Assembly (NCBI GenBank): GCA_000002445.1
Contig: CP000068.1
Coordinates: 96,001 to 160,000, forward strand
Length of the DNA: 64,000 nt
Reading direction: 5' to 3'
Origin: Trypanosoma brucei
Lineage: Eukaryota
Under the pieces are notes generated by a model. That model was not told where the DNA came from. It did not search any database and worked only from the letters and a program-made list of their open reading frames with translations. A program made the translations under genes and the position numbers. Each line of letters starts with the position of its first letter. The first letter of the stretch is position 1. This document shows positions 14,374 through 53,850 of this stretch, piece by piece.

Positions 14374-14902
14374 CCGTTAAAACTTATCTGTCACCCTCCT
14401 CTGATCACCACTTCCTCAGCTTGTCAGTCTCAACCTCACGTTACCTTGGCCGTAGAAATATGCAATCAACTACAGTCAAATATCCAAGAGAAAATAAGAA
14501 AGGGAAGGGAATCGATAGAAACGACCAAAGAGTAAAAATATGCGCGATTGAGCAAAGGAAATAATATGCGTATCCAATAGCGGATTTGTTGCAGTTCACC
14601 CGAACATGGACAACCTCCACGGCGGTCTTTCATTACACCCTTCATAGTAGCGCAAGGAATGTATGAATACCCTTAACACATGAAATAAGCAATACGTATG
14701 AAAAAAGGCATCAGCACTGGTATCCGCAGCTACCAATGCGGCCCTACCTCAAACCGGTAGTATGTGGGAAAAGGGTTGTAGTTGTAAAGTTTTCTGTAAA
14801 ATTCCTGAAATGTGACAAAAGATTGTGAAAAGACGAAACCGGCAGCAGATGGGGGAAGGGGGAAGGGAGCGGCGTTGTCAAGTGCGACGAAGATTTTTTA
14901 CG

Positions 14903-25423: not shown

Positions 25424-26992
25424 ATGTCAACGATGCCTGTTACATTACGCACTACTGCAACAGTATTTCTCCTCTGCGGCATATGTGCGCTCGATGTGAC
25501 TCTGGCCGCAGACCTTCCACTTACAAGTAGGCAGTTCGTAACAAACGGACGTATGCTTGACGGGCGGGGTGCTTTGACACTGTGCGAAATGAAGAAGACG
25601 CTTGACGGTGTGAACTCCAGGGTTGACACATTTGAACAACAAATCCTTACGTTCGTCAACAATGCGAATGCGAATTTTCGTAAAATATCGGATGACAAGG
25701 TAATGGCAGCATCGCTCTCCGCGAGCAGGCTACAGGAAATGCAGTACATGAAATCGCTGGGCAATAGCATAATCAAGTACATGGGGGGCACAGGAGAGCG
25801 GGCTAAGGCAGCGGCGGCAAATGCAAGCGCAGCTCTCGACCAAGTGCTGACGTGGCATTGTGTTGACAGGACGGCGAGTCACGAGTCCTCATACAGTTCT
25901 ACTCCAAATGCAAATTGTGAACCTAACGCGTATAAGCGAGACTACTACTATGAACATTCGAGGCTTGATCCCCATAAATACAGCATTTTATGCAACTACA
26001 AAGTGGTCAGTAGTACCACTACTCAAACGACGTTCTCCAACATGGAGAGGGCACTCGAAATATGGAACCAGGTAAAACCCAAACCGTACTCCGCTCGTGT
26101 TATGATATGTGGAGCAGGCGCACCCGCTCACCAAGCAGCTCCCGCTGGACGACCATGCACAGTGCTGGAGAACTGGGTGCGAGACTACAGAGTAACGGCA
26201 CATTTGATAGCAAAGCTCGAGAAGGATGCGACCCTAGCTCTAAGGGTTATGCGCTACTCTGAGAAAGTGCTAGAGGGTGACAAAGAGTCTCTTGCACAGC
26301 ATGAGGAGAGAAGGAAAGCAGCAGAGGCGCGGGCGGCGGAGGAGGAGGCGAAACGCCAGGCTGCTGAGAAGGCTGCTGAGGAAGCGAGAAAGGCTTTGGA
26401 GGAGGCTGAGGCGAGACGAGTGGCCGCTGAGGAACAGGCGGAGGCCAGGCGCTTGGAAGCTGAGAAGGCTGAGAAGGCAAAGGAGGCGGGTCAGCCGGTG
26501 AGTGAAGAAAAGAAAAAGATGTTGCTGGAGGCTGTTGAGGAAGCTGAGGCAACTGAAAAGGCTGCAGAAAAGCAGGCAAAAGATTCGAGAAAGGCATTTG
26601 AGGAAGCGGAGGAGGAGCGCGTCAAAGCCACCGAAGATGCAGAGGCTGCAAAAGAGGAAAAGGAGGACGCCGGACGGTCCGAAGAGGAACTGAAGAAGAG
26701 TCTCGAAAAATTGGCGGAGGAATTGAAAGAGGAGTCGAAAGAAAGTGGTGAAGAGGACGACGTAAATGCTGACCATGATGATGAGGGCAGCGAGGCCAAA
26801 AGTGGCTGGATTGGGACAACGAAAGTGTTAATATTTTTAATTCCTTTGCTTTTGCTGTTGCTTGGGTTGCTTGTGTTCTTTGTTATTAGGGGCCGTAGGA
26901 AGGCTGAGGTGAAGGATGATATAAACATAGAGGAAGGCGGTGCTAAAAGCAAAAATACGAAGACAGCAGCAGGTCTTGACAGTGATATTTAA
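25424..26992 (+). CDS. ISG75: ISG75 family, copy E (subtype 2, mosaic of the B-type and C-type ectodomains), 522 aa
   Basis: Same domain organisation. The ectodomain mixes B-like segments (SLGNSIIKYMGGTGERAKAAAANASAALDQVLTWHCVDRTASH) and C-like segments (ESSYSSTPNANCEPNAYKR, KVMAASLS). Lies on the opposite strand from copies A-D. Confidence 0.85.
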   Translation: MSTMPVTLRTTATVFLLCGICALDVTLAADLPLTSRQFVTNGRMLDGRGALTLCEMKKTLDGVNSRVDTFEQQILTFVNNANANFRKISDDKVMAASLSASRLQEMQYMKSLGNSIIKYMGGTGERAKAAAANASAALDQVLTWHCVDRTASHESSYSSTPNANCEPNAYKRDYYYEHSRLDPHKYSILCNYKVVSSTTTQTTFSNMERALEIWNQVKPKPYSARVMICGAGAPAHQAAPAGRPCTVLENWVRDYRVTAHLIAKLEKDATLALRVMRYSEKVLEGDKESLAQHEERRKAAEARAAEEEAKRQAAEKAAEEARKALEEAEARRVAAEEQAEARRLEAEKAEKAKEAGQPVSEEKKKMLLEAVEEAEATEKAAEKQAKDSRKAFEEAEEERVKATEDAEAAKEEKEDAGRSEEELKKSLEKLAEELKEESKESGEEDDVNADHDDEGSEAKSGWIGTTKVLIFLIPLLLLLLGLLVFFVIRGRRKAEVKDDINIEEGGAKSKNTKTAAGLDSDI

Positions 26993-27444
26993 CCACCTTC
27001 TCTTGTGCCCGAACACGAAGGTACAGATATAGGCATTTGTGTGTATGATTTTGGAATTGAAATCGGTTGCTATAAGTGATATAAGGGTGCTTTTTATATG
27101 TTTTCGTTTCTTGCTTTTTATACCGTTGCTTGTAATGTTTCGGTCTGACCAGTTCCTTGCAGCTCATCTCAAGGTTATTACCCTTTTCCCACATACTACC
27201 GGTTTGAGGTAGGGCCGCATTGGTAGCTGCGGATACCAGTGCTGATGCCTTTTTTCATACGTATTGCTTATTTCATGTGTTAAGGGTATTCATACATTCC
27301 TTGCGCTACTATGAAGGGTGTAATGAAAGACTGCCGTGGAGGTTGTCCATGTTCGGGTGAACTGCAACAAATCCGCTATTGGATACGCATATTATTTCCT
27401 TTGCTCAATCGCGCATATTTTTACTCTTTGGTCGTTTCTATCGA

Positions 27445-27486
27445 TTCCCTTCCCTTTCTTATTTTCTCTTGGATATTTGACTGTAG
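27445..27486 (+). promoter_or_regulatory. polypyrimidine tract plus first downstream AG: predicted spliced-leader trans-splice acceptor for ISG75 copy F. The same motif lies upstream of every ISG75 unit, for example 25286-25327 (+) and 10156-10182 (- strand).
   Basis: TTCCCTTCCCTTTCTTATTTTCTCTT followed by ...GACTGTAG about 100 nt upstream of the ATG. This matches the kinetoplastid poly-Y/AG processing signal. Confidence 0.55.
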
Positions 27487-27582
27487 TTGATTGCATATTT
27501 CTACGGCCAAGGTAACGTGAGGTTGAGACTGACAAGCTGAGGAAGTGGTGATCAGAGGAGGGTGACAGATAAGTTTTAACGG

Positions 27583-29151
27583 ATGTCAACGATGCCTGTT
27601 ACATTACGCACTACTGCAACAGTATTTCTCCTCTGCGGCATATGTGCGCTCGATGTGTCCAAGGCAAGCAACTTACCTGTCGCATATAAGCAGTATGTAA
27701 CAATAAATGGGCGGAAACTTGACGGGCGGGGTGCTTTGACACTGTGTACCATGAAAAAGTTGCTTGACGGTGTTGCTGATAGAGCAGACTTTCTAGAGAG
27801 GCAATCCTGGAAATATTTGAAGACAGTGCAGGAAATTTTTCAGAAAGTGTCAGAGCATGATGATATGAAGGCGGCCCTTGGCGAAAAGAAGCTGCAGGAA
27901 ATGCATAATGTAATGGCCATATCAGCAACCACTGGAACGTACGTTGGTGAAGCGTGGGGAAAGGCGAAGAGGGCTGCAGCGAACTCGAGCAAAGTTCTCA
28001 AGGAGTTGCTAAAATGGCACTGTATAAACAAGGAAGCAATCCGTGATTCGTTTGACCATATGGCTAACGCAAACTGCGATCCCAGTGCGTATAAACATGA
28101 CTATCATCGAAATTTTGGACATGATGACGCTCGCGCATACGTTATATATTGCGAGTACAAGTCTATTCCGGCTGCAAAAACTGATGTGACCTTCTCCAAC
28201 ATGGAGGGGGCAGTCGAGGCATGGAATCGAGCAAAGCCCAAGGCTGATGCAAGGGATGCTGTTGAGTGCAGCAGCGGCCATTCGTCAAGAAGTGCGTCCT
28301 CCTCCGATAAACCATGCACGCTGCTTGAAAGTTGGCGGTGGGACTACGACTTGGCAGCACATTGCATTGAAAAACTTGAAAGATACACCAGAAATGCATT
28401 ACAAACAGTTCATTACGCTCAAAAATTCCTACATAAAGGAAAGGAGTCTCTTGCACAGTATCTGGAATGGAAAAAAGCAGCAGAGGCGCGGGCGGCGGAG
28501 GAGGAGGCGAAACGCCAGGCTGCTGAGAAGGCTGCTGAGGAAGCGAGAAAGGCTTTGGAGGAGGCTGAGGCGAGACGAGTGGCTGCTGAGGAACAGGCGG
28601 AGGCCAGGCGCTTGGAAGCTGAGAAGGCTGAGAAGGCAAAGGAGGCGGGTCAGCCGGTGAGTGAAGAAAAGAAAAAGATGTTGCTGGAGGCTGTTGAGGA
28701 AGCTGAGGCAACTGAAAAGGCTGCAGAAAAGCAGGTGAAAGATTCGAGAAAGGCATTTGAGGAAGCGGAGGAGGAGCGCGTCAAAGCCACCGAAGATGCA
28801 GAAGTTGCGCGGTGGGACAAGGAGGGCGCCGAGGAATCTGAAGAGGAACTGAAGAAGGATGTAGAAAAATTGGCTGAGGAATTGAAAGAGGAGTCGAAAG
28901 AAAGTGGTGAAGAGGACGACGTAAACGCTGACCATGATGATGAGGGCAGCGAGGCCAAGAGTGGCTGGATTGGGACAACGAAAGTGTTAATATTTTTAAT
29001 TCCTTTGCTTTTGCTGTTGCTTGGGTTGCTTGTGTTCTTTGTTATTAGGGGCCGTAGGAAGGCTGAGGTGAAGGATGATATAAACATAGAGGAGGCTAAT
29101 GCTAAAAGCAAAAATACGAAGACCGCAGCAGGTTTCGACAGTGATATTTAA
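27583..29151 (+). CDS. ISG75: ISG75 family, copy F (subtype 1, closest to copy A), 522 aa
   Basis: N-terminus DVSKASNLPVAYKQYVTINGRKLDG and tail ...EEANAKSKNTKTAAGFDSDI as in copy A. Patchwise differences in the mid-ectodomain. Its 3' flank (29152-29379) is the reverse complement of copy A's 3' flank (8248-8474). Confidence 0.85.
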   Translation: MSTMPVTLRTTATVFLLCGICALDVSKASNLPVAYKQYVTINGRKLDGRGALTLCTMKKLLDGVADRADFLERQSWKYLKTVQEIFQKVSEHDDMKAALGEKKLQEMHNVMAISATTGTYVGEAWGKAKRAAANSSKVLKELLKWHCINKEAIRDSFDHMANANCDPSAYKHDYHRNFGHDDARAYVIYCEYKSIPAAKTDVTFSNMEGAVEAWNRAKPKADARDAVECSSGHSSRSASSSDKPCTLLESWRWDYDLAAHCIEKLERYTRNALQTVHYAQKFLHKGKESLAQYLEWKKAAEARAAEEEAKRQAAEKAAEEARKALEEAEARRVAAEEQAEARRLEAEKAEKAKEAGQPVSEEKKKMLLEAVEEAEATEKAAEKQVKDSRKAFEEAEEERVKATEDAEVARWDKEGAEESEEELKKDVEKLAEELKEESKESGEEDDVNADHDDEGSEAKSGWIGTTKVLIFLIPLLLLLLGLLVFFVIRGRRKAEVKDDINIEEANAKSKNTKTAAGFDSDI

Positions 29152-33278: not shown

Positions 33279-34460
33279 TCACTCCCTCAGGTAACTTGGT
33301 GCCTGTTTCCCATTGGTCTCCCCTGCGGCCACATCTTCTTTTGTTCCCGGCCGCCGCTTCCGCAAGAAAAAAATTGTGACAGCGACAATAATGAGGAAAA
33401 GGGGAACGACGGCGCACACCACGTAAATGGCAATACGTGTGCCGCTGGACAACTCGGAGGTTCCTCCTTCGGAAAGTTTATCATCATCCTCAATAACTCC
33501 GTCCTCTTTTTCCGCATCATAATCCTCACCCACTTGTTCCACTTTAAAGTCCTTACCGGGACCAGCGACGGGTTTCAGCGCGGCATCCACATGTTGCACC
33601 TGATCCTTCACTCGGTCAACGGCATTCTGCACCGCCTGACAGGCATCCACGACAGGTTTCATTGCATCAATCGCTTTTTTGTAATGCTCAATCCATCCGC
33701 TCTCATCAACGGTGCATGCAGTTGATGTGAAGTATCCGTCCATTCGACACGCGGTCTCGGCGTATTCATTACGGTGGGTGGGACTCGAAGGCTTTGGTTT
33801 AACATCATTCCACTTTTCCATGGCAGCTCCCATTCCGAGATGATCCAAACCTTTCGGTTGGCCTCTGCACTCGATTTCATAAATGCCTTCACCCACAGAT
33901 TTTGTAGACACACCCCGGCAGTTGTTGTTTTCGTTGTCACTATGCGCGTTACTGGGTTTTTTGGATATGGTCTGGCAATAACTCCTCAACACTTTTCTAA
34001 TGCCGGTGTCTTCCGATTCTCCCACTGCCTTCCTGGCGGGCTCCTTGACTTTTGATATGCCACTTTGAATAACCCCAAGTTGCTTCTCAACTTCCGTCTT
34101 GGCGCTGCCGACAACCGCTAGCGCCTCGTCAAGTTCTTTCTTTGCTTTTTCTACCGCCGCCAGGTCTTTTGATCCCTTCCCGTCTGACAGTTTCTCAAGT
34201 CCCTCGCGCTCCTTCTTTATTAAATCAGTTGCGTTATCGATGTACGTAATCTTGTGTTTCGTATGATTTACGATATTTTTTTCACCCTCCCCCACTGTAT
34301 TCGCAAGAGTGTACAAACTGCATAATATTTTCGCACTATTCGCATCGAAGTGTCCGTCTGCTGGTTGCTGGTTCTCGGCAGAGGCAAATGATACCAAAGT
34401 GAACCAAAACGGCACCAGGAGTTGAAGCGACATCTTCACACGCATGAAATACATATGCAT
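33279..34460 (-). CDS. ISG-fold (ISG65/ISG64/ISG75-superfamily-like) type-I membrane glycoprotein, 393 aa by the longest ORF. The likely true start is the M of MSLQLLVPFWFTLVSFASA at 34433.
   Basis: Signal peptide; N-glycosylation sequons; motifs AMEKWNDVKPKP and ACTVDESGWIEHY are recognisably homologous to ISG75 ALEIWNQVKPKP and PCTVLENWLWNY; C-terminal TM IAIYVVCAVVPLFLIIVAVTIFFL followed by the basic tail RKRRPGTKEDVAAGETNGKQAPSYLRE. Confidence 0.65.
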   Translation of the reverse strand: MHMYFMRVKMSLQLLVPFWFTLVSFASAENQQPADGHFDANSAKILCSLYTLANTVGEGEKNIVNHTKHKITYIDNATDLIKKEREGLEKLSDGKGSKDLAAVEKAKKELDEALAVVGSAKTEVEKQLGVIQSGISKVKEPARKAVGESEDTGIRKVLRSYCQTISKKPSNAHSDNENNNCRGVSTKSVGEGIYEIECRGQPKGLDHLGMGAAMEKWNDVKPKPSSPTHRNEYAETACRMDGYFTSTACTVDESGWIEHYKKAIDAMKPVVDACQAVQNAVDRVKDQVQHVDAALKPVAGPGKDFKVEQVGEDYDAEKEDGVIEDDDKLSEGGTSELSSGTRIAIYVVCAVVPLFLIIVAVTIFFLRKRRPGTKEDVAAGETNGKQAPSYLRE

Positions 34461-35025: not shown

Positions 35026-36147
35026 CTAACAATCCTCTTCTTCCTCAGCGACTGCGGAAACGGGAGCGTAAGCACTCTGCACCTTCAAGCTGTTCTTTAT
35101 GCAGCGAAATAGCAAGAAACCGAGAACCAAAAAGAGTAACGAAGCAGTCACCACAATTATGCACGTGACAATGTCCTTCGATATTATTCCGTCTATAGAC
35201 GATTTCAATGACTTCTTCTCATGGTGCTTTCCAGTCGGGGTAGAGGATCGCACCAATTCCTTCAACGCATTCTTGTGCTTTTTCAACTCCTCAGCAGCGT
35301 TATGAACACTTTTTGTTGCCTCCTCCAACTTCTTAAGTTCATGTAGGGAAGAATTATAATCTCCCGTCCATTCCTCCTCAGGCACCGTACACGGACCCTC
35401 TGAAGCATATCCGTGACTTATGCAACTCGCATTCCATTGCTTGCTCGTATGTTTAACAGCTGCAAGCCCCGGTTTTGCACCATCCCAAGCGTTTATTGCA
35501 TTCGACATGGCCTCATATGTGACGTTAGCAGCAGTCACATTATCAGAACCTCCAATACTCTTACAATCAATTTTGAAGGCACCGGCTCCAGCAGCCGCAG
35601 CAATGCCATCGTCGCAGTTATTATTCACATTATGACTCTTCTTACCTTCCTTTGCACCAGTAATTGTTGTATTGCAGTATATCGTCAGTACCTTATTCAT
35701 TCCTTTGCTCTCAGAATCCCCCACTGCCTTTTTTGCGTGTTCCACGGCTTTGCTGGAGGCGTTTGTAATAATTTCATGTTGCTTCTTCACTTCTTCATCA
35801 GCTTTTGCGCTGGCGTTCAACACCGCATCGAGATGCCTCTTTATCGCATCCCCCACCGTTGCGTTCTTTGCTTTTATGGAGTCAACTAACTTACCAACCT
35901 TCTGCCGTGTCCTGTTCAAAGCAGAGGATGTGTTCTGAATAAACTTAATCTTCTGTGCTGTGGTATTTAAAATACCATCCGCAACACTTTGCATGGATCC
36001 CGCAAGGCCATACATGATGCATAATGCCCTAGCTCCTTCTTTATTAAATCTCTTGAGAGCAGGGCGCTGGCCTTTCTCAGCCGCAGCAAATGCAACGGCA
36101 GTAATTACTGATGCCAAAATGTAGGAGTGACGCAATCTTGCGCCCAT
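35026..36147 (-). CDS. ISG-fold type-I membrane glycoprotein, 373 aa. It is a mosaic paralog of 37164-38297.
   Basis: Signal peptide MGARLRHSYILASVITAVAFAAAE; motifs AMSNAINAWDGAKPG and GPCTVPEEEWTGDYNSSLHELKKLEE resemble the ISG family; TM IVTCIIVVTASLLFLVLGFLLF with the acidic tail ...AVAEEEEDC. Many sequons in residues 61-125. Confidence 0.65.
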   Translation of the reverse strand: MGARLRHSYILASVITAVAFAAAEKGQRPALKRFNKEGARALCIMYGLAGSMQSVADGILNTTAQKIKFIQNTSSALNRTRQKVGKLVDSIKAKNATVGDAIKRHLDAVLNASAKADEEVKKQHEIITNASSKAVEHAKKAVGDSESKGMNKVLTIYCNTTITGAKEGKKSHNVNNNCDDGIAAAAGAGAFKIDCKSIGGSDNVTAANVTYEAMSNAINAWDGAKPGLAAVKHTSKQWNASCISHGYASEGPCTVPEEEWTGDYNSSLHELKKLEEATKSVHNAAEELKKHKNALKELVRSSTPTGKHHEKKSLKSSIDGIISKDIVTCIIVVTASLLFLVLGFLLFRCIKNSLKVQSAYAPVSAVAEEEEDC

Positions 36148-37163
36148 ACCTTTACTACTAGTTTCAACGACACACTAAGCCTGAAATGCAATAACCACAA
36201 CACATCCACATTCATTTTTTTTATACGTACAAATACGTACAAATATATAAACAAGGGGAAAACATTGTATAAAACAGTAATTAGGAGTAACAAAGATGCA
36301 ACCTAATGAAAGCAATGCACGAAATCAAACGATGCACCAAATGGCACTGTTGAAACACCGCTTTAATCATAAAGTCACGAACCGTATGTTTTCAGTGCAT
36401 GGTGACATGGTGAGTAGACAGGGGAACACTAAGCCAAATGAAAATTTTATGGATTACCACGACACCAACACTGGTCGCAACGGCCACGAAATGAGGAGAG
36501 GGATGCGGGGGGGAGGGGAAAAAAAAAAAAGAAAAAAGAAAAATTAGCAAAACAAAAGATAAAGGGAAGCAACGAAATGATCGAAGCTGGTTATAAGAAG
36601 GAATCCAAAAGAAATCCAACGAAAGAAAGAAATGAAACAAACCAAAACATCTGGCGTGAGTAACATGTTGTGTGAGCATGTCTGTCAGTTTACCCACTAA
36701 TATACAGTAATAAGAAAGATAACCCTCCAAATCCGCCTCAAGAACAAAATCCCTAAAGAAAGGAACGCCTCAATTCAAGTTGCGAAGACACAAAATTGTG
36801 TGAGTGTATTCACCGCACTGTAAACCCACTCCAACAAAAACAACGTAATTCTAACGAAATGACAACGAGTGGACAAAGCGTATAAAATAGGTATGAAAAT
36901 AACAGCAACTATAATCGTAAAGCATAGCAAGACCAACGCATTACGCATTACGAACCCAAGCACACTAACGACAACCTCGTCAAAACATACACATCCAACC
37001 GCTCCACCGCATCGGAAAGGAGAAAGGAGAAAGTCGGCAGACTCATGCACAGGTGACGGAAAATCTTCCGTTGCAAAGAAAAAAAATGAGAGAGAGCGAA
37101 GTCGAGCAAACGAAACACAAAAATAAACAAAAAAAGAACACAAACATTGTAACGGCACGACGA

Positions 37164-38297
37164 CTATATCATGAGTCGAGACCCTGACCTCTTGGTCCCA
37201 AAAGCGCTACCTCTGTTAAACCCGCGACGATTCATTAGCAAAAGTAATACACTAGTTGCGGGCACTATAGCCACAAAGCAAATGGCAACGGCAACAAGAT
37301 AACCAACAATGTCCGTGCCGCGATCCGAACTGTCGGGTGCCGGGACCAATGGTTCCGTAAGAGAATCATTACGATTTAAGTTGGAGGATCGCATCAGCCG
37401 CTGCACCACATCACCCGTCTGCGTTTTCATACCCTCAGCAGCGTTATGAACACTTTTTGTTGCCTCCTCCAACTTCTTAAGTTCATGTAGGGAAGAATTA
37501 TAATCTCCCGTCCATTCCTCCTCAGGCACCGTACACGGACCCTCTGAAGCATATCCGTGACTTATGCAACTCGCATTCCATTGCTTGCTCGTATGTTTAA
37601 CAGCTGCAAGCCCCGGTTTTGCACCATCCCAAGCGTTTATTGCATTCGACATGGCCTCATATGTGACGTTAGCAGCAGTCACATTATCAGAACCTCCAAT
37701 ACTCTTACAATCAATTCTGAAGGCACCGGCTCCAGCAGCCGCAGCAATGCCATCGTCGCAGTTATTATTCACATTATGACTCTTCTTACCTTCCTTTGCA
37801 CCAGTAATTGTTGTATTGCAGTATATCGTCAGTACCTTATTCATTCCTTTGCTCTCAGAATCCCCCACTGCCTTTTTTGCGTGTTCCACGGCTTTGCGGG
37901 AAGCGCCAGCAATAATTTCATGTTGCTCCTTTAGCTTTCTTTGGCCCCAGTCGAGAACTTCAAGTGCATCCTCTAGCTCCTTCTTTGCCCTGCTAAACTT
38001 TGCCGCATCTTCTATTGTCTCACCTTCCTCACGCTCCATCTGAACAACCTCCTCATGCCTAGCTTTAATCAGAACGAATGCTTCTTCAATATAAGCGATT
38101 TTATCGTGCATACTCTTTAAAATACCATCCGCAACACTTTGCATGGATCCCGCAAGGCCATACATGATGCATAATGCCCTAGCTCCTTCTTTATTAAATC
38201 TCTTGAGAGCAGGGCGCTGGCCTTTCTCAGCCGCAGCAAATGCAACGGCAGTAATTACTGATGCCAAAATGTAGGAGTGACGCAATCTTGCGCCCAT
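37164..38297 (-). CDS. ISG-fold type-I membrane protein, 377 aa. It is a mosaic paralog of 35026-36147.
   Basis: Identical to the 373 aa paralog over residues 1-60 and about 126-290, and in 150 bp of 5' flank. It has a different charged, sequon-free module at residues 61-125 and an unrelated TM (IVGYLVAVAICFVAIVPATSVLLLL) plus basic tail (MNRRGFNRGSAFGTKRSGSRLMI). Confidence 0.65.
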   Translation of the reverse strand: MGARLRHSYILASVITAVAFAAAEKGQRPALKRFNKEGARALCIMYGLAGSMQSVADGILKSMHDKIAYIEEAFVLIKARHEEVVQMEREEGETIEDAAKFSRAKKELEDALEVLDWGQRKLKEQHEIIAGASRKAVEHAKKAVGDSESKGMNKVLTIYCNTTITGAKEGKKSHNVNNNCDDGIAAAAGAGAFRIDCKSIGGSDNVTAANVTYEAMSNAINAWDGAKPGLAAVKHTSKQWNASCISHGYASEGPCTVPEEEWTGDYNSSLHELKKLEEATKSVHNAAEGMKTQTGDVVQRLMRSSNLNRNDSLTEPLVPAPDSSDRGTDIVGYLVAVAICFVAIVPATSVLLLLMNRRGFNRGSAFGTKRSGSRLMI

Positions 38298-38432
38298 ACC
38301 TTTACTACTAGTTTCAACGACACACTAAGCCTGAAATGCAATAACCACAACACATCCACATTCATTTTTTTTATACGTACAAATACGTACAAATATATAA
38401 ACAAGGGGAAAACATTGTATAAAACAGTAATT

Positions 38433-38650
38433 AGGAGTAACAAAGATGCAACAGGTCACAAGTTGAACAAAACAACACGAGCACTAACATAGACTATGCA
38501 TAAATATATATAGATAAATAAAGATAAATATATTTATGCCGAGTGTATGATGTCACGGTAAATAGAGCATGGCATGAAATAAAACTATTACACCATAATG
38601 CTACTGACCTCATACCACTCACGTAACGCTCAGGAACAAAAAAAAGGGGT
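38433..38650 (-). repeat. direct repeat of about 218 bp, copy L (3' of the trans-sialidase-like gene and 5' of the 377 aa ISG-like gene)
   Basis: Identical or nearly identical to 41491-41708 (AGGAGTAACAAAGATGCAACAGGTCACAAGTTGAACAAAACAACACGAGCACTAACATAGACTATGCATAAATATATATAGATAAATAAAG...CGCTCAGGAACAAAAAAAAGG). Confidence 0.85.
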
Positions 38651-38962
38651 TGGAACAAAAAAAGAAAATTATATGTATCGTGTCTCACATACAACAGAAC
38701 CACCTTAGATCATGTGATAAAGAGAAAAAAAAAATATAACCGTGCTCTCAGAGTGCCGGAAGCAGTCTACTGATGTCATTAACATCAGAAGAAAACCGGT
38801 AGCACCTGATATGTTATAGTTGACATCCTATTTGTAAAAATAAAATCGTTGAAACATACTCGCTTAAATTTACCGTCTTGAGTCTACCATTAAAGTTATT
38901 AAATGAAATTCATGTCTGCTCGTATTATCCTCCTCACGCTGAAATAACATGGATTATAGACC

Positions 38963-41317
38963 TCATTTCCTTACATCCAGTGTGTCATCAGTGATATCCA
39001 CAGTGTATGGGTTATATCCCGCCGGCATCTGTGGTAATCCCGCACCCGGTCGCATGGCAGCGTTTTGGGCTGCCCTCCGCTGCCGCAATACGAAGAACCC
39101 AACCAAACCAAGCACGATAAGTAACGCTGGGACCACTACAGCCGCAATCCATGCCAGGTTGCGACCACCCGATTTACCGCCTTGACCATCCCCATGATCT
39201 CCATTATCCTCATCCTCGTCTTCCAAGACAGCATCAAATGTACTTCTGTGCTTTACTGCAAGTAGCGCCTTCACATCAGCTACGCTTAGCTCATGGCTGT
39301 ACAAAAGCATGTTGAATACGGTAACACTCAGGTCGCCAGTTGCCTCACCCTTTCCGATCACTCGCTCGTTGGCTCCAACATATATCTCGTGTATCTCTGC
39401 CGACTGCGACAACGGCACAATACTGCCCTGACCATCCCCTACACGATTCCCGTCAATGTACGTATGGGCAACGCCGCCTCGCACGGTCAAGACAACCTGG
39501 TAGGTTTTCCCCTCTTCCAGAGCGAGTGTTTTGGCGCCAGCTGTCGTACCACTCAATTGGGTCCACGCCTTTTCGTCGTACCAGATACCCACGTCTGCAA
39601 TTAAGCCGGATTTGTTCCTCACGCCCACTCCAAGAAGTGGAGTGGGGTTCTTTGGTGCCTTATGGACGGCCACGCTCATCACGACTGTCAGCCCGTTGTC
39701 AATCAAATGGTACACTTTATTCTCATTTTTGCCAGATACGGGAAATACAACATGTGCGGCGCGTGTGCCCAAAGTGAAACCGGTGGTGACCCTCTTTACA
39801 GGGCCTTGTAGCGCACCATCCATGCCAAGGTATCCGTCACGCCAATGCGTGCGGTTGGCCACTTCAGACCAAAACCCAACGAGGCCCACCGTTGGGTCAA
39901 ACTTTGGCGCTGACGTGCTCTCCTCGCCCGTAGTGCCATAAAGCGCCATCACACTCCCGTCCACCTTCCTCCACAAACCCACCACTGCCTTCAGTTCATG
40001 CACACGGTCGGTGAGGTCGGTAAAGAAAATGCTTTTCAACTGGCTGAAACCCTCCTCATGCAGGGAGTACAGCCCACTCTCAGTGTGCAGGAGGGCGCTA
40101 AAAGATAACATGGATAAATGACCAGAGGAAATCGCCCCGAGGCAATGCGTCCGCTTGCTATCCGTCACCCAAAGGAGGAGCGGCCTCAATCCCGCATTCC
40201 CTGAATTGAAGAAGGCGCGGTAAGCAAATAGGATCACATCCGACCCATCCACCTTCATGTTCACGAAGTCACCTCGGTCGTCGTCATCGGAGTGATACTG
40301 GAAATTGGACAGTGCGTGCCTTTCACCCTCCGTAGCGTCAGTCCACGTCATCCCCACGTCTACGGATCGATACATCTTGTTTTTCGTCTGGTGTGCAACT
40401 ACAAGCAGCAATTCCTTCTTCCACACAAGCAGGCTGGGCTCCGTGCAATCGTCGATGTCCAGTTTAGCCGGGGTGAAGCTCCATGACTCACTCTCGTGCT
40501 TATAACGCGCAATAACGCATGTCTTAGCCCCACTCTCAGCGGACGCGACGAGAGGGAAAAGTATGGTGTCGCCCACAACAGCACCCTTTCCACCACTCTC
40601 GAAGAATTCCTTCCATGAGTGCTCCAATAGCGGCCTCTTGAACGTATCAGTCAGCGATGAAGGCTTATTCCACTTCACAACCTTGCCATCTTCCGCACCG
40701 CGGCCGCCGATAGTGCCCACGAAAAGCTTCACCTCCAAGTCGAACGCACCCTCTTGAGGTTCTACATCCTTCGCCTTGTTGCTGCTGAGTGAAAGAAGGA
40801 AAATCTTATCCTTCAGTACTATTGCCCTGGGGCCGTATTGAGCGTAGCGATGATCGGCCACCGGCTCATTCACGAAAACATTCTCAGTCTTCCATTTTTT
40901 CTCTGACATCCAACCCGCCGCCTGTGCGCTCTGGTGAGTCTCGCCAAGTGCAATAGTCTTTAGCCACACTCCGGCGTATCCGGCAGTCCACGCGTTATAT
41001 CGTGCTTCAGCGAGGGCAACAACACTCCCACCCACCGCCACGAGTGAATTACCTTCGAATAAACCGTGTTTCACATCATGACTCGAGTCACTGTGCGACA
41101 ACAAACTTTCTCTATTCCACGGTTTGAATAATTCCACCCTCCGCTTCTCAACTCCTGCAGGTTGGGAAGATGAGCCATTACTGCACACGGGGAGCAAAAG
41201 GACTGAAGCAACCAATAGTAGTAATGGTGTGTGCATCCTTTTGTAACTTTTCTCCCGTGTAGGGAAGTCATCTTTCATCCATACTCTCATGCTGGTACCT
41301 GGCTCCTGCAAATGCAC
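38963..41317 (-). CDS. trans-sialidase/sialidase-like protein (784 aa by the longest ORF). The probable start is at 41236, the M of the signal peptide MHTPLLLLVASVLLLPVCS.
   Basis: Asp-box SVDVGMTW (S-x-D-x-G-x-T-W); a beta-propeller-like N-terminal half and a C-terminal lectin-like region (LLYSHELSVADVKALLAVKH) typical of trypanosome trans-sialidases. The C-terminus has a TM helix (IAAVVVPALLIVLGLVGFFVL) followed by a 45 aa cytoplasmic tail, not a short GPI signal. Confidence 0.7.
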   Translation of the reverse strand: MHLQEPGTSMRVWMKDDFPTREKSYKRMHTPLLLLVASVLLLPVCSNGSSSQPAGVEKRRVELFKPWNRESLLSHSDSSHDVKHGLFEGNSLVAVGGSVVALAEARYNAWTAGYAGVWLKTIALGETHQSAQAAGWMSEKKWKTENVFVNEPVADHRYAQYGPRAIVLKDKIFLLSLSSNKAKDVEPQEGAFDLEVKLFVGTIGGRGAEDGKVVKWNKPSSLTDTFKRPLLEHSWKEFFESGGKGAVVGDTILFPLVASAESGAKTCVIARYKHESESWSFTPAKLDIDDCTEPSLLVWKKELLLVVAHQTKNKMYRSVDVGMTWTDATEGERHALSNFQYHSDDDDRGDFVNMKVDGSDVILFAYRAFFNSGNAGLRPLLLWVTDSKRTHCLGAISSGHLSMLSFSALLHTESGLYSLHEEGFSQLKSIFFTDLTDRVHELKAVVGLWRKVDGSVMALYGTTGEESTSAPKFDPTVGLVGFWSEVANRTHWRDGYLGMDGALQGPVKRVTTGFTLGTRAAHVVFPVSGKNENKVYHLIDNGLTVVMSVAVHKAPKNPTPLLGVGVRNKSGLIADVGIWYDEKAWTQLSGTTAGAKTLALEEGKTYQVVLTVRGGVAHTYIDGNRVGDGQGSIVPLSQSAEIHEIYVGANERVIGKGEATGDLSVTVFNMLLYSHELSVADVKALLAVKHRSTFDAVLEDEDEDNGDHGDGQGGKSGGRNLAWIAAVVVPALLIVLGLVGFFVLRQRRAAQNAAMRPGAGLPQMPAGYNPYTVDITDDTLDVRK

Positions 41318-41490
41318 GGGTTATATTCCGATAAAATTCCCCACGTTATCTTTTCACAATAATCGTCACTTGAGTCAGGCCTTCCGTCTATGAGGCGCGT
41401 TAGGCTCTGTATTATTTCACTGTAGGCGATCACTTGCTTTTCTTGTGTGAATGTCTGAATAAAAGTTAATTAAAAGCAAATGAAAATTAT

Positions 41491-41708
41491 AGGAGTAACA
41501 AAGATGCAACAGGTCACAAGTTGAACAAAACAACACGAGCACTAACATAGACTATGCATAAATATATATAGATAAATAAAGATAAATATATTTATGCCGA
41601 GTGTATGATGTCACGGTAAATAGAGCATGGCATGAAATAAAACTATTACACCATAATGCTACTGACCTCATACCACTCACGTAACGCTCAGGAACAAAAA
41701 AAAGGGAG
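41491..41708 (-). repeat. direct repeat of about 218 bp, copy R (5' flank of the trans-sialidase-like gene)
   Basis: See 38433-38650. Its first 25-40 nt also occur upstream of the 373 aa ISG-like gene (36270-36300). Confidence 0.85.
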
Positions 41709-42372
41709 CTGGAATAGAAGAGGTTAAGAAACACGCGTTGCAGTGCTCATCCCAATTCGTGTTAAAGCTACATGGGGGGAAAAAATGATATAATAAATGC
41801 AAACATGAAGAATGTCACTAACACTATTCTTGAGAGCGCTGTTGATTTTACTACTGGAAATCTTCTTCAAGAGTGGCAAGTTGATTTGCATTGATGTTTT
41901 TATACCTCCAATAACAACACCTTAAAGGTAGAACCCCTATTGTTTCCCTCCTTCGCGTCGCAGCAGAGTAACAAAAATGGTTTTGTCCATCAGACATATT
42001 ACGGAAAAAAGTGAAAGCAAATACATTCCATTTTGTTTCTTTTCAAACACAAAAAAAAAACAGATGGAAAAAAAAATACCAATACCAATATGATTCCGGA
42101 CACTTTTGCAAGTTATTGAGGTTGTCAATATCCTCATCTCGCAAAAAATTCAGGCATTCCCAAGTGTTAACCTTATGAGCCGAAATCTTCACATTATTTT
42201 TAAATAAAAAAAAATAAAAATAAAAAAAACAGCACGGACAGGGGCCCCCAACACATGTGTCCCCCACCCCCGGGCCCTCCCAGCCCTCTTTCCTTCAAAT
42301 AGAAACGACAACAAACCTCTTCACACATTCGCCTCCTTCGCAATGCTATGGAACACGAGGGGAAAAAAACAG

Positions 42373-42444
42373 CATCCGTGACAGGATTCGAACCTGCAAC
42401 CCTCTGATCCGTAGTCAGATGCTCTTCCATTGAGCCACACGGAC
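42373..42444 (-). tRNA. tRNA-Arg(ACG): tRNA-Arg, anticodon ACG, 72 nt
   Basis: Manual cloverleaf on the reverse complement: acceptor GTCCGTG/CACGGAT (G1-U72 wobble), D-arm GCTC-AATGGAA-GAGC, anticodon arm TCTGA-CTACGGA-TCAGA (U33, anticodon ACG), 5 nt variable loop, T-arm GCAGG-TTCGAAT-CCTGT, discriminator G. Confidence 0.8.
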
Positions 42445-43450: not shown

Positions 43451-44941
43451 TTAGTTCCAATTCCGCACGATCTTTCCGTCCCAGTTCAACTTCTCCCCCT
43501 TCTGCATGGCGTAGTAGCGATGCGTCTTCCAGCGACGCCAAGGTGAACCCGACTTACCCCAATGCGGGTTTGCTTCCCAGTATTTCTCAATACGCTCCTG
43601 CAACAGCGGCGTGAAGTGGCGGGCCAAACCCTGCACGGGCCATGCCGCTGCGGTTGCCAACGCACAGATGGTTCGCCCCTCCAGTTGTTTAGACACATCG
43701 AGCATGGTTCCAACCTCTTCCATACGTGCGTTACCGTGGACGAAGCGTTGCATCATCTTTTCGAGCCATGGGCTTCCTTCACGGCATGGCGTACACTGGC
43801 CACATGACTCATGGGCATAAAACATAGATAAGCGATGGATAGCCGCGATAAGGTCGGTAGATTTATCCATCACTATCACCGCTGCGGTGCCGAGGCCTGT
43901 TTGCGCCTCCTTCAGCGCATCGAAATCCATGAGGACGTTATCACAAATGCTCTTTGGAATAAGAGGACAAGAAGAGCCACCAGGAATGACAGCGAGGAGA
44001 TTGTCCCATCCACCCCGCACGCCACCAGCATGACGCTCAATGAGGTCCCGCAAAGGAATACTCATCTCCTCCTCTACTGTACAGGGCCGGTTGACGTGAC
44101 CGCAAATGCAGAACAGTTTTACCCCAGCATTGTTGCGTCGACCAAATGAATTAAACCACGACGGGCCGCGCCGGAGGATTGTTGGTGACACGGACACGGT
44201 CTCCACATTTGTCACAGTGGTGGGACACCCATAAAGACCGACATTGGCCGGAAAAGGGGGTTTAAGACGTGGCTTTCCTGGTCCACCTTCAATGCTTGAA
44301 ATCATCGCAGTTTCCTCCCCACAGATGTACGCTCCCGCACCGCAGTAAGTGTATAAATCAAAATCGTAACCGCTTCCGCATGCATTGCGGCCCAAGTAAC
44401 CCCGCGCATACGCCTCTTTAATTGCCTGATCCACAGCCCTCCACTCATTGTAAAACTCGCCTCGTATGTAAATGTAACCGTAACGCGCCCGCATGGCAAA
44501 ACCTGCAATGAGAGCCCCCTCTACCAATTTGTGTGGTTCATGCCGCATAATCTCTCGATCCTTACACGTCCCTGGTTCCGATTCATCTCCATTAACGACG
44601 ATGTAACTTGGGCGGCCGTCAGGTTTGGATTTTGGCATGAAGGACCATTTGAGTCCCGATGGGAAACCGGCTCCGCCGCGGCCACGGAGTCCACTGGCCT
44701 TAATTTCATTTATAACCCAGTCGTGTCCCTTCAACAGCAAATCGCGGGTACGATACCAATCCCCTCGTCGCTCAGCACTATCAATATCTGTGCCAAAATC
44801 CTGATAAAGATTAACAAAAATGCGGTCCTGATCCTTCAATCCACCGTGTACCCGCTGCTCCTGCTGAGTTGGTGGTGGTTGAGAAGCTGCTGCCTGAAGC
44901 AAAGACCCCGTAGCGGAAAGAAAACCCACACGCCGGAGCAT
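43451..44941 (-). CDS. NADH dehydrogenase (ubiquinone) flavoprotein 1, the 51 kDa NuoF/NDUFV1 subunit of complex I, with a mitochondrial presequence
   Basis: Signature blocks [15 protein letters not shown] (NADH/FMN site) and [12 protein letters not shown] (4Fe-4S ligands). Overall co-linearity with NuoF. N-terminus [14 protein letters not shown] resembles a matrix-targeting peptide. Confidence 0.9.
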
Positions 44942-46106
44942 TAATAACTACACACAAGGTTCAATTTGATTACACAAACGCACACAACCACAAATGGTAA
45001 AGGATGTGAATGCCAAAGCGCCTGTTAAGTGAGGAACCTTTTAAAAAAAAAAAAACACACACAAAGAAAGAAAAACAATCCGCGGGCTACGAGCAATAAA
45101 AATTCTGAACGATTTAGTCGCTGCTATTGTTGTTCTTGTTGCTCCCTTGATGATTATAATGATGATGATAATGATGTATATACACACGCGCCCACCTAAC
45201 AGGCACACTACAACTAATTACTACGACTATTAGAAATGATATCTTCCACTACCGCTGCGACTACTGACTGTACACGAAAAAATAAAAATAAAAATAAAAA
45301 AAGAAAATCCGCTACAACCACCACCGTCTTTCCCACACTTTATTTTTTTTTCTCCTTCTCCTTTCTCGCCCTTCGCTTCCTTCTAATAAACTCGGACAAA
45401 ATGTGGAGTCGTGACTGTCTCTTCGTTCTCTTGTGTGTTTTCCTCTATTATTGTTATTATTCTTTTTTTTTTTCTCTCTTCCTTTACTTTTCTTTACTGC
45501 CCTTTGGCGTGGTTGAATCCGCTATTTCCCTAAATGTTGGTTGGGAAGACTTAAGGGCAGGCGGGAAAGAAGGAAGGAAATAGCAGAAAAAAAAAAAAAA
45601 CTCTGCTTCGTCCCGCACAACAAAACACGCGCACGCACCTAATGTAAACCTTCCACTAGTGGACGGATGTTTTTTTTTTACAAAAAAGAAAAAAAAAGTC
45701 ACATGAATAAATGAAAGAGAAAAAGTAAAAGTAAAAAAAAAAAGAGAGAGAAATAGAAACACAGAGATATGAAGCGAGAAAGTAGAGAAAACGAAAAAAA
45801 TTCATACACCATGCAGGCAAACAGCAAACAAGAAATTACCGCAGTAACATAACGGTTGGACGCAAAATACCAATCGTACACCATTATTATTATTTGGCAC
45901 TCTCTCACCCCAAAAAAAAAAAAAACAAAGGTGCCATAAACAACTCATCAAAAATAACAGGAAAAGTAGAAAATAAATAAATAAACATGGAGTGCAATGT
46001 GAAGCCACACCGCAAAGCGCCGTACAGCACGGTTTGTAGTGGGAGCAAATGTAATCATTTGGCAACAATGCAAAATGGTGAAGGGTTGATGTTTGGCAGT
46101 GGTATT

Positions 46107-46142
<36 letters not shown>

Positions 46143-46421
46143 TCAAATATGCATTTACGTACAAGAAAAATGCACACATGTCCGTGTGTGATGCTTTCCA
46201 GTGGGTGAACAATCATCAAATATGTCTACTCAAATTTTACAAGAAAAAAAATCCTGCAGATGGGCACAAATCAGGCAGCCGTGCACCTTTCCAGTAGAAT
46301 ATCATAAGGCAGCAGCAACACATGCGGTAATTAAAGATGTATTCGAAAAATAAAATAAAAATAAAATAAGCTTTATTCCCTCGCCAAACATCATCTCGCA
46401 CCATATCAAGTTGCATTTCCC

Positions 46422-46754
46422 TCATCCTCCTTCATTACCATCACTGCTATTGTTGTTGTTGTTATTATTATTATTATTAATATTATTATTGTTGTGATGA
46501 GTCCAGTTGGGGAGACACCCCGCGAGATGTTGCGCCTGGCAGCTGTGAAATTGTTCCGTAGCTTCCACACAATTTGGAGCCCAAAAACCCTCCACTTCAA
46601 TGCAACGCTGCGCAATGGCCCTCAACTCAACACATGGCGTAATTTCCTCCTGTTCTGCAAGCCGACGCTTAAAACCCTCCGGAACTTCCTCCCAAGGCAT
46701 TTGCCGGCCATTACCCACCGCATAAGTCGTACCGCCACCCTTCAATACAACCAT
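46422..46754 (-). CDS. small twin-Cx9C (CHCH-domain) protein, candidate mitochondrial intermembrane-space protein, 110 aa, with an Asn-repeat C-terminus
   Basis: Two exact C-x9-C pairs, CVELRAIAQRC and CVEATEQFHSC, embedded in helical-looking sequence (PWEEVPEGFKRRLAEQEE...). Same strand as the flanking genes. The C-terminal poly-N tail is encoded by an (ATT/GTT)n microsatellite on the + strand (46440-46492). The ORF sits in an otherwise empty 4.5 kb gap. Confidence 0.45.
   Translation of the reverse strand: MVVLKGGGTTYAVGNGRQMPWEEVPEGFKRRLAEQEEITPCVELRAIAQRCIEVEGFWAPNCVEATEQFHSCQAQHLAGCLPNWTHHNNNNINNNNNNNNNNSSDGNEGG
46440..46492. repeat. (ATT/GTT)n trinucleotide microsatellite that encodes the poly-Asn tail of the CHCH ORF on the - strand
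   Basis: TATTGTTGTTGTTGTTATTATTATTATTATTAATATTATTATTGTTGTG. Confidence 0.9.
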
Positions 46755-53699: not shown

Positions 53700-53820
53700 A
53701 TAAATAAATAAATATTTATATTTATATATTTATATATATTTATATATATTTATATATTTATATATTTATATTTATATATTTATATATTTATATATATTTA
53801 TATTTATATATATATATACA
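53700..53820. repeat. AT-only minisatellite (TATATATT / TATATTTA units)
   Basis: Repeated TTTATATATATTTATATAT... periodicity over about 120 bp inside a 2.7 kb low-complexity intergenic region. Confidence 0.85.
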
Positions 53821-53850
53821 TACCATTACACCTTTGTAGGAAATACTAAC

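What the first reader, a model, noticed from the sequence alone, without database searches (positions are those of the whole stretch)
35026..38297. Two adjacent ISG-fold genes are modular mosaics with swapped N-terminal modules and unrelated TM/cytoplasmic tails
The 373 aa and 377 aa proteins share identical signal peptide and first 60 residues, an identical core of about 165 aa, and an identical 150 bp 5' flank. Residues 61-125 are completely different: a sequon-rich module (NTT, NTS, NRT, NAT, NAS) versus a charged sequon-free coiled-coil module. They also end in different TM helices and tails (acidic …AVAEEEEDC versus basic …NRRGFNRGSAFGTKRSGSRLMI). That is domain shuffling between tandem paralogs. 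It creates two receptors with the same fold but a different glycan shield and different cytoplasmic sorting signals. Together with 33279-34460 they form an ISG-superfamily trio whose ALEIWNQVKPKP / PCTV…W…Y-type motifs tie them to ISG75.
Basis: seen in the sequence. Interest (0 to 1): 0.6.

Follow-up and report, generated by a model that had tools for sequence, protein, structure and literature searches.

The report
Patchy gene conversion between two ISG65-like genes

Summary
The window is T. brucei TREU927 chromosome 5, and the two genes are Tb927.5.420 (35026-36147, -) and Tb927.5.430 (37164-38297, -). They share a 337-bp block at 100% identity (155 bp of 5' flank plus codons 1-60) and a 523-bp core at 97%. 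Between and after these blocks there is no detectable DNA similarity.

The divergent parts are not foreign modules. They occupy the same alignment columns and are predicted to form the same helical hairpin. Their synonymous sites are saturated, as in comparisons with the third paralogue Tb927.5.410, and no donor exists among the family representatives.

Across three independent genomes, the shared blocks carry 6 sites where both paralogues changed together within a genome and no paralogue-fixed sites in their interior. The variable parts carry 421 paralogue-fixed sites and no concerted ones. That pattern means recurrent, tract-limited gene conversion between old tandem paralogues.

The conserved part is the membrane-distal head. 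The unconverted part is the membrane-proximal bundle (the ligand-binding side in ISG65), the linker, the TM helix, the tail and the 3' UTR.

The trio is ISG65-like, not ISG75-like. Mosaic ISG arrays are already published, so this is a new example of a known kind.

The parts
35026..36147 (-). Tb927.5.420 CDS, 373 aa, ISG65-like type I membrane glycoprotein
   Evidence: ORF. Exact match to XP_844716. Pfam PF11727 at 311 bits. AF2 model: three-helix bundle, head and TM helix. Best fold match is ISG65 8ovb_C.
37164..38297 (-). Tb927.5.430 CDS, 377 aa, ISG65-like paralogue
   Evidence: ORF. Exact match to XP_844717. Pfam PF11727 at 311 bits. AF2 model has the same architecture.
33279..34460 (-). 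Tb927.5.410 CDS, 393 aa, third ISG65-like paralogue; about 30% identical to the other two in every segment and not involved in the conversion
35966..36302 (-). Shared block 1, copy in 420: 155 bp of 5' flank plus codons 1-60 (signal peptide and start of helix 1)
   Evidence: 100% identical over 337 bp to 38116-38452. Carries 2 concerted sites across genomes and no paralogue-fixed sites.
38116..38452 (-). Shared block 1, copy in 430
35276..35795 (-). Shared block 2, copy in 420: codons about 118-291 (end of helix 2, disulfide-rich head, first two thirds of helix 3). The interior, +395 to +859, is fully homogenised; the edges are graded.
   Evidence: 97.3% over 523 bp to 37420-37941. The interior has 4 concerted sites and no paralogue-fixed sites. 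Edges shown.
37420..37941 (-). Shared block 2, copy in 430
35796..35965 (-). Variable segment 1 of 420 (about aa 61-118): basic (net +7 over aa 61-122), 5 sequons; membrane-proximal part of helix 1, the turn, and helix 2
37942..38115 (-). Variable segment 1 of 430 (about aa 61-119): acidic (net -5 over aa 61-124), no sequons; same predicted hairpin
35026..35275 (-). Variable C-terminal part of 420: end of helix 3, 12-aa linker, atypical TM helix, acidic tail with 2 Lys (RCIKNSLKVQSAYAPVSAVAEEEEDC)
   Evidence: Only 9-18% identical to any family member.
37164..37419 (-). Variable C-terminal part of 430: end of helix 3, 17-aa linker, family-typical TM helix (GT.I..Y...), basic tail with 1 Lys
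   Evidence: 31% identical to T. congolense P0028.
38432..38655 (-). 225-bp patch upstream of 430 that is 99% identical to 41490-41714 upstream of the trans-sialidase. It overlaps the 5' edge of block 1 within a 19-21-bp motif present in all three upstream regions.
41490..41714 (-). Second copy of the 225-bp patch, upstream of the trans-sialidase gene

Best explanation
Tb927.5.420 and Tb927.5.430 are two old tandem paralogues of the ISG65-like branch of the trypanosome invariant-surface-glycoprotein family. Recurrent, tract-limited gene conversion between them keeps two stretches identical or nearly so. The first is the 5' flank (probably the splice-acceptor region and 5' UTR) plus the signal peptide and the first 60 residues. 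The second is the core that encodes the membrane-distal, disulfide-bonded head.

The stretches in between and downstream have never been overwritten. They are the membrane-proximal part of helices 1, 2 and 3, the linker, the TM helix, the cytoplasmic tail, the 3' UTR and the intergenic DNA. These remain diverged to saturation, and that divergence now blocks homologous exchange there.

The result is two proteins with the same head and different lower halves. Tb927.5.420 is basic and densely sequon-marked, with an atypical TM helix and an acidic tail. Tb927.5.430 is acidic and sequon-free, with the family-typical TM helix and a basic tail.

Shown here: the mosaic, its conservation in three genomes, the concerted sites, the saturation, the shared predicted fold, and the non-random sequon density.

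Inferred: that the boundaries are kept by lack of homology and/or by selection; that the sequons are glycosylated; that the lower halves confer different ligand binding, turnover or expression.
For: Mosaic and breakpoints; chi-square 660.

The same mosaic occurs in DAL972, colinear at 98.9%, and in T. b. equiperdum IVM-t1.

Six-way site patterns:
- Block 1 plus the block 2 interior (802 columns) hold 6 sites where both paralogues share one state within a genome and differ between genomes (-134, -110, +411, +646, +689, +807), and no paralogue-fixed sites.
- Variable segment 1 plus the C-terminal and 3' part hold 421 paralogue-fixed sites and no concerted sites.
- At protein level, both DAL972 paralogues carry I->V, A->V and H->Q relative to both TREU927 paralogues. 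The second TREU927 haplotype copy, 420b, carries the R192 of 430.

Age of the variable parts: third-codon identity is 0.31 and 0.29, the same as for any segment against Tb927.5.410 (0.31-0.40).

Homology of the variable parts: same alignment columns with conserved K66, I67, I70, D100, K103, L106 and L110. Both models give H1-turn-H2 at pLDDT about 90.

No donor: only 11 family representatives among 1.84 billion proteins, and none is more than 31% identical to either variable part.

The T. congolense homologue P0028 has a 430-type TM helix and tail, which makes that form the ancestral one.

Precedent: chimaeric copies read as partial gene conversion in 21 of 47 T. brucei tandem arrays (PMC1855330), and mosaics in 31 of 35 arrays with the ISG65 array as the example (PMC2854126).
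Against: Only three genomes could be compared, and the number of informative concerted sites is small (6).

Sites +6 and +90 can be read in two ways: as re-homogenisation in TREU927, or as new mutations in the DAL972/equiperdum lineage that have not yet been homogenised.

The C-terminal part of 420 resembles no family member (9-18% identity). An origin of that piece by replacement or de novo drift cannot be excluded, and the one search aimed at this failed technically.

The 225-bp patch shared with the trans-sialidase upstream region shows that unrelated DNA has also been pasted into this locus.

Nothing here tests function.
Confidence: 0.8

Rival explanations
1. Domain shuffling. A recent tandem duplication gave two identical genes, and then one or both received heterologous modules (the residue 61-122 segment, the TM helix and tail, the flanks) from other genes.
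For: The breakpoints are sharp. The C-terminal part of 420 is unlike any family member. The 225-bp patch shared with the trans-sialidase upstream region shows that ectopic patches do occur at this locus.
Against: No donor is found for any variable piece. The variable segments are positionally homologous and are predicted to form the same hairpin. It would need at least three independent replacements (upstream flank, segment 1, C-terminus plus 3' flank) against two conversion tracts whose donors are the genes themselves. The concerted sites show that the identity is being renewed and is not a relic.
Confidence: 0.12
2. A recent duplication followed by very fast positive selection, for example immune or ligand driven, that drove the two variable segments apart while the rest stayed identical.
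For: The variable parts map to the ligand-binding side of ISG65. The sequon density in 420 is non-random, so selection has acted on that segment.
Against: Synonymous (third-codon) positions are at the random level in the variable parts and 100% or 99% identical in the shared parts. The adjacent non-coding flanks are also unalignable. Selection on protein sequence cannot produce that.
Confidence: 0.05
3. Assembly artefact: a chimeric or mis-joined assembly of repeated ISG genes.
For: Short-read assemblies do fail here. In T. equiperdum OVI, a 10-N gap joins window position 38649 to 36529 and removes 430.
Against: There are no Ns in the window. The same structure occurs in three independently assembled genomes: TREU927, DAL972 and IVM-t1.
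Confidence: 0.01

Closest known systems
ISG65 (Tb927.2.3270-3320), complement C3/C3b receptor; structures 7PI6, 7ZGJ, 8OVB
   Same: Same Pfam family. It aligns over the whole ectodomain at 28% identity, E=2e-17. It is the best fold match at TM 0.75. It has the same six head cysteines and the W..KP..PCT..EEW..Y motif. It is a type I membrane protein, and the trio is reported as up-regulated in bloodstream forms.
   Different: The trio is about 60 residues shorter, with a 12-17-aa linker in place of about 47 aa (PMC10140031). The named C3 contact residues Arg77, Lys97, Tyr293 and Glu302 are not conserved and fall in the parts that differ between 420 and 430. There are 1-2 cytoplasmic lysines against 3-4 in ISG65 (PMC4619645). 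The ligand is unknown.
ISG75 (Tb927.5.350-400, in this same window at 8475-16561 and 25424-29151); structure 8RD2
   Same: Same superfamily and the same W..KP..PCTV..W..Y motif; ALEIWNQVKPKP is present in the ISG75 copies. It is encoded in the same window.
   Different: Only a 93-aa local alignment, E=2e-4. The fold match is weaker, TM about 0.4. ISG75 has a long extra C-terminal region (523 aa).
Partial gene conversion and sequence mosaics in T. brucei tandem arrays (Jackson 2007, PMC1855330; Jackson et al. 2010, PMC2854126)
   Same: Same process: chimaeric copies within tandem arrays, subspecies-specific homogenisation and recombination breakpoints. The ISG65 array is the published example.
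   Different: Those arrays consist of similar copies with many small patches. Here there are only two genes, and the contrast is extreme (100% against saturation). The two tracts have the same boundaries in three genomes, and those boundaries separate the head from the membrane-proximal half, TM helix and tail. This pair is not mentioned in either paper's searchable text.
T. congolense ISG65-like proteins CCC90319 (P0028) and CCC90321 (P0029)
   Same: They are the closest relatives outside T. brucei. P0029 pairs with Tb927.5.410. P0028 pairs with 420/430 and has a 430-type TM helix and tail.
   Different: Only 25-40% identical. Whether T. congolense has a 420/430-like pair could not be seen, because the only contig held is 4.7 kb.

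Membership tests
ISG65-75 superfamily (Pfam PF11727) | Match to the family HMM above the gathering score | tested here: met
   311.5, 311.0 and 296.6 bits against a cut-off of 25.1, covering positions 2-281 of the 281-position profile.
ISG65-75 superfamily (Pfam PF11727) | Three-helix bundle with a membrane-distal, disulfide-bonded loop-rich head | tested here: met
   AF2 models of 420 and 430: H1, H2, head, H3, with pLDDT above 90 in the bundle. Foldseek top hits are ISG65 and ISG75. The cysteines align with ISG65 Cys43, 168, 181, 200 and 251. This rests on predicted structures only.
ISG65-75 superfamily (Pfam PF11727) | Type I topology: N-terminal signal peptide, one C-terminal TM helix, short cytoplasmic tail containing lysine | tested here: met
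   Hydrophobic N-terminus and one strong 19-mer at residues 329-347 (420) and 335-353 (430). Tails of 26 and 23 residues with 2 and 1 Lys. No dedicated signal-peptide predictor was available.
ISG65-75 superfamily (Pfam PF11727) | Bloodstream-form expression and surface or endosomal location | not testable with these tools
   From the literature only: 420 and 430 mRNAs are up 2-5 fold in bloodstream forms (PMC2443814), and 430 is listed in ribosome profiling (PMC4210626). No localisation data were found.
ISG65 proper (C3/C3b receptor) | Conservation of the C3 TED contact residues (Arg77, Tyr293, and others) and the long disordered linker | tested here: not met
   The contact residues align to non-identical residues or to gaps, and they lie in the segments that differ between 420 and 430. 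The linker is 12-17 aa. These genes are ISG65-like, not ISG65.
ISG75 | Full-length similarity, including the long C-terminal region (about 523 aa) | tested here: not met
   Only 93 aa align, E=2e-4. No ISG75 chain is found by sequence in the PDB search.
Concerted evolution by gene conversion | Paralogues within a genome share states that differ between genomes, inside the tract only | tested here: met
   6 concerted and 0 paralogue-fixed sites in the block interiors, against 0 concerted and 421 paralogue-fixed sites in the variable parts, across three genomes.
Concerted evolution by gene conversion | Abrupt change of identity at the tract edges, with flanks diverged to the level of old paralogues | tested here: met
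   Identity goes from 100% to about 40% within a few bases at -155 and +182. Third-codon identity is 0.29-0.31 outside the tracts.
Domain shuffling / module exchange | The exchanged segment is non-homologous to what it replaces, or has a closer relative in another gene | tested here: not met
   The segments are positionally homologous and predicted to form the same hairpin. No family representative exceeds 31% identity to either. For the 420 C-terminus the test is inconclusive.

The most novel reading that the evidence does not exclude
The conversion boundaries are not just mechanical accidents. They are kept by selection because they separate two functional units. On this reading the pair is a natural 'constant head, variable ligand face and tail' system. 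The exposed membrane-distal head is held identical. The membrane-proximal bundle surface, which is the ligand-binding side in ISG65, has diverged into a glycan-coated basic version and an acidic bare version. These are coupled to different TM helices, tails and 3' UTRs, so the parasite gets two receptors with different ligands, turnover and regulation from one locus.
Probability: 0.2. Interest if true: 0.55.

Novelty: new member of a known kind. Interest (0 to 1): 0.3.

Why it matters
ISG-family proteins are among the few invariant, host-facing proteins of bloodstream trypanosomes. ISG65 binds complement C3 and ISG75 is a suramin-sensitivity determinant (PMC10140031, PMC4619645). The short ISG65-like genes on chromosome 5 have no known ligand or location.

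This pair offers a ready-made contrast: an identical head with different membrane-proximal surfaces, glycan loads, TM helices, tails and 3' UTRs. That makes it a convenient natural experiment for asking which part of an ISG controls ligand binding, glycosylation, sorting and turnover.

There is also a practical point. The identical blocks make short-read assembly unreliable (430 is lost in the T. equiperdum OVI assembly). They probably also affect read mapping, array probes and peptide assignment for these two genes.

As an evolutionary observation it is one more, unusually clean, example of a process already described for T. brucei tandem arrays.

Tried and rejected
1. The search for homologous proteins with full-length 420 returned only 420 and 430 because of the word-index limit. 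It was replaced by the exhaustive profile search.

2. The search for homologous proteins with the 87-aa C-terminus of 420 returned nothing, not even the parent protein. This negative result is uninformative and was not used.

3. I tried to identify 'TbgISG43' (Tbg972.5.200, PMC11065263) as one of the trio. Its residue landmarks (Val25, Glu39, Val328, Arg348; construct aa 22-349) fit none of 410, 420 or 430. It is probably a different ISG-related gene, and this is left unresolved.

4. The T. congolense locus was fetched to date the duplication, but the contig is only 4.7 kb and holds one gene.

5. T. equiperdum OVI was fetched to check 430, but the gene falls in a scaffold gap, so that assembly says nothing about gene loss.

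6. The 'extra' gambiense gene CBH10903 between 420 and 430 is only a 121-aa intergenic ORF call.

7. The antisense ORFs at 35413-35889 and 37557-37934 are by-products of the shared block and were ignored.

The height of each breakpoint along the bundle was therefore judged from secondary-structure boundaries only.
Full report
**Identity of the locus.** The window is Trypanosoma brucei brucei TREU927 chromosome 5. The ORFs at 35026-36147 (-), 37164-38297 (-) and 33279-34460 (-) are exact matches to Tb927.5.420 (XP_844716), Tb927.5.430 (XP_844717) and Tb927.5.410 (XP_844715). They lie between the ISG75 arrays (522-552-aa ORFs at 8475-16561 on the minus strand and 25424-29151 on the plus strand) and a trans-sialidase gene (38963-41317). 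All three are strong full-length matches to Pfam PF11727 ISG65-75, at 297-311 bits against a cut-off of 25. In the literature they are already called 'ISG65-like' or 'ISG65/75 domain protein'. The 420 and 430 mRNAs are reported as 2-5 fold higher in bloodstream forms (PMC2443814; PMC4210626).

**Check of the observation.** The description is accurate.
- The proteins are identical over residues 1-60 and 98% identical over residues 123-286, with four differences: T128A, N129G, S132R and K192R.
- They are 20% identical over residues 61-122 and 18% identical over the C-terminal part.
- At DNA level there are just two matching blocks. One is 337 bp at 100%: 36302..35966 = 38452..38116, made up of 155 bp of 5' flank plus 182 bp of coding sequence. 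The other is 523 bp at 97.3%: 35795..35276 = 37941..37420.
- The edges of block 1 are abrupt. The edges of block 2 are graded over about 10-40 bp.
- Identity is 801/802 inside the blocks against 413/964 outside, chi-square 660.
- Tb927.5.420 has sequons at N61, N72, N78, N95 and N111, and 430 has none in that segment. All five Asn of the segment lie in sequons where shuffling gives 0.72, P about 1e-5.
- The segments have opposite net charge, +7 and -5. The cytoplasmic tails differ as described: acidic with 2 Lys, and basic with 1 Lys.

**Not an artefact and not a pseudogene in this strain.** The window has no Ns. The T. b. gambiense DAL972 locus is colinear at 98.9% over 8.4 kb, with both genes intact. 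T. b. equiperdum IVM-t1 has the same layout, although its 430 copy carries a 1-bp deletion at +407 that could be real or a long-read error. In the short-read T. equiperdum OVI assembly a 10-N gap removes 430. This shows that the repeat collapses in poor assemblies, not that the gene is missing.

**What made the mosaic.** I aligned the two genes, with flanks, from three genomes.
- Inside block 1 and the interior of block 2 (802 columns) there are six sites where both paralogues of one genome share a state that differs from other genomes (-134, -110, +411, +646, +689, +807). There are a few singletons and no site fixed between the paralogues.
- In variable segment 1 and in the C-terminal and 3' part there are 421 paralogue-fixed sites and no concerted site.
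- At protein level, both DAL972 copies carry I->V, A->V and H->Q relative to both TREU927 copies. The second TREU927 haplotype copy, 420b, carries the R192 otherwise seen in 430.

This is the signature of gene conversion between the paralogues that has continued since these T. brucei lineages separated, with the same tract limits each time.

Third-codon-position identity between 420 and 430 is 1.00 and 0.99 in the shared parts. It is 0.31 and 0.29 in the variable parts, which is the random level and the same as any segment compared with Tb927.5.410. So the variable parts are old. They are not recent products of positive selection.

**The variable parts are not foreign modules.**
- They occupy the same alignment columns with only small length differences and keep family-conserved positions.
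- AlphaFold models of both proteins (mean pLDDT 79 and 77, about 90 in this region) give the same architecture: H1 at 36-94 or 36-91, a turn, H2 to 142 or 144, a loop-rich head, H3 from 260, a short disordered linker, and a TM helix.
- An exhaustive profile search of 1.84 billion representatives found only 11 family representatives, all trypanosomal. None is more than 31% identical to either variable part.
- The nearest outside relatives are two T. congolense proteins. P0029 pairs with 410. P0028 pairs with 420/430 and has a 430-type TM helix and tail (31% against 18% for 420).
- The 430 architecture therefore looks ancestral. The C-terminal part of 420 is the outlier in the family, at 9-18% identity to everything. 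That one piece is where a replacement origin cannot be excluded. The search aimed at it failed technically.

**A further patch.** The 225 bp upstream of 430 (38432-38655) are 99% identical to 41490-41714 upstream of the trans-sialidase. The switch from 'trans-sialidase-like' to '420-like' lies inside a 19-21-bp motif (GTTGCATCTTTGTTACTCC...) that is present in all three upstream regions. The locus is thus a patchwork made by homology-guided exchange. This fits the general explanation, and it also shows that ectopic patches occur.

**Where the boundary falls in the protein.** In ISG65 the H1-H2 loop and the end of the last bundle helix are membrane-proximal, and the disordered, disulfide-bonded head is membrane-distal. 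The C3 TED binding site is on the membrane-proximal side. The named contacts are Arg77, Lys97, Tyr293 and Glu302, plus Trp211 near the head (PMC10140031).

By alignment, Arg77 and Lys97 fall in variable segment 1 of 420/430, and Tyr293 and Glu302 fall in the variable C-terminal part. The head cysteines fall in the homogenised blocks.

So the pair shares the head. It differs in the membrane-proximal bundle, linker, TM helix, tail and 3' UTR. The functional meaning is inference. In ISG75 the cytoplasmic domain is sufficient for deubiquitinase-dependent stabilisation, and ISG65 and ISG75 have 3-5 cytoplasmic lysines (PMC4619645). A difference in turnover between tails with 2 and 1 lysines and opposite charge is therefore plausible, but it is untested.

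**Relation to ISG65 and ISG75.**
- Tb927.5.420 aligns to ISG65 over 296 residues (E=2e-17) and to ISG75 over only 93 residues (E=2e-4).
- The PDB sequence search finds only ISG65 chains.
- Foldseek gives ISG65 8ovb_C at TM 0.75 and ISG75 8rd2 at about 0.4.

The trio is ISG65-like but is not ISG65. The proteins are about 60 residues shorter, the linker is short, and the C3 contact residues are not conserved.

**Novelty.** Partial gene conversion and chimaeric copies were reported in 21 of 47 T. brucei tandem arrays (PMC1855330). Sequence mosaics were reported in 31 of 35 arrays compared between T. b. brucei and T. b. gambiense, with the ISG65 array as the example (PMC2854126). The mechanism is therefore established, and the genes are annotated and recognised as ISG-like. 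This particular pair, and the way the tract limits separate the head from the membrane-proximal half and tail, does not appear in the searchable literature.

I rate it a new member of a known kind. It has modest interest as a clean natural chimera for functional work.

Noticed in passing
window 38432-38655 and 41490-41714: A 225-bp stretch upstream of Tb927.5.430 is 99% identical to a stretch upstream of the trans-sialidase gene. It joins the 420/430 shared block inside a 19-21-bp motif common to all three upstream regions. The cross-match is also present in T. b. gambiense.
   Followed up: partly
L002 3849-4981 (T. b. equiperdum IVM-t1): The 430 orthologue is split into two ORFs by a 1-bp deletion at +407 (GTGGAACAC -> GTGG-ACAT), inside the homogenised core. 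It may be a real pseudogene in this non-tsetse-transmitted lineage, or a long-read indel error.
   Followed up: partly
L003 9609-9618 (T. equiperdum OVI): A 10-N scaffold gap joins sequence matching window 38649 directly to sequence matching window 36529, so Tb927.5.430 is missing from that assembly. The identical blocks make short-read assembly of this pair unreliable, and probably read mapping too.
   Followed up: yes
window 8475-16561 (-) and 25424-29151 (+): The ISG75 genes form two arrays on opposite strands. One is four copies including a divergent 552-aa copy at 14903-16561, and the other is a pair. About 9 kb between them has no long ORF. This matches the 'Tb32' array and its ectopic gene conversion described in PMC1855330.
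   Followed up: no
window 42372-42444 (-): A single tRNA-Arg (ACG) gene lies between the trans-sialidase and the NADH dehydrogenase 51-kDa subunit gene (43451-44941). It is the only Rfam or ARAGORN hit in the window.
   Followed up: no
window 46000-54000: A markedly AT-rich stretch (GC 0.32-0.40, against about 0.46 elsewhere) surrounds an MFS transporter gene (49422-51164).
   Followed up: no
P0028 / P0029 (T. congolense IL3000, CCC90319 and CCC90321): The closest relatives of the trio are two T. congolense proteins with near-adjacent accession numbers. One is 410-like and the other is 420/430-like with a 430-type tail. This suggests that the split between 410 and 420/430 predates the split of the two species.
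   Followed up: partly
PMC11065263 (TbgISG43 = Tbg972.5.200): A short 'ISG43' has been studied by SAXS and HDX-MS. Its residue landmarks fit none of 410, 420 or 430, so it is probably another chromosome-5 ISG-related gene. Its identity was not resolved.
   Followed up: partly
A word-index protein search with the exact 87-aa C-terminus of Tb927.5.420 did not return Tb927.5.420 itself, although that protein is in the collection. Negative results of that tool for short, hydrophobic or low-complexity queries should not be trusted.
   Followed up: no
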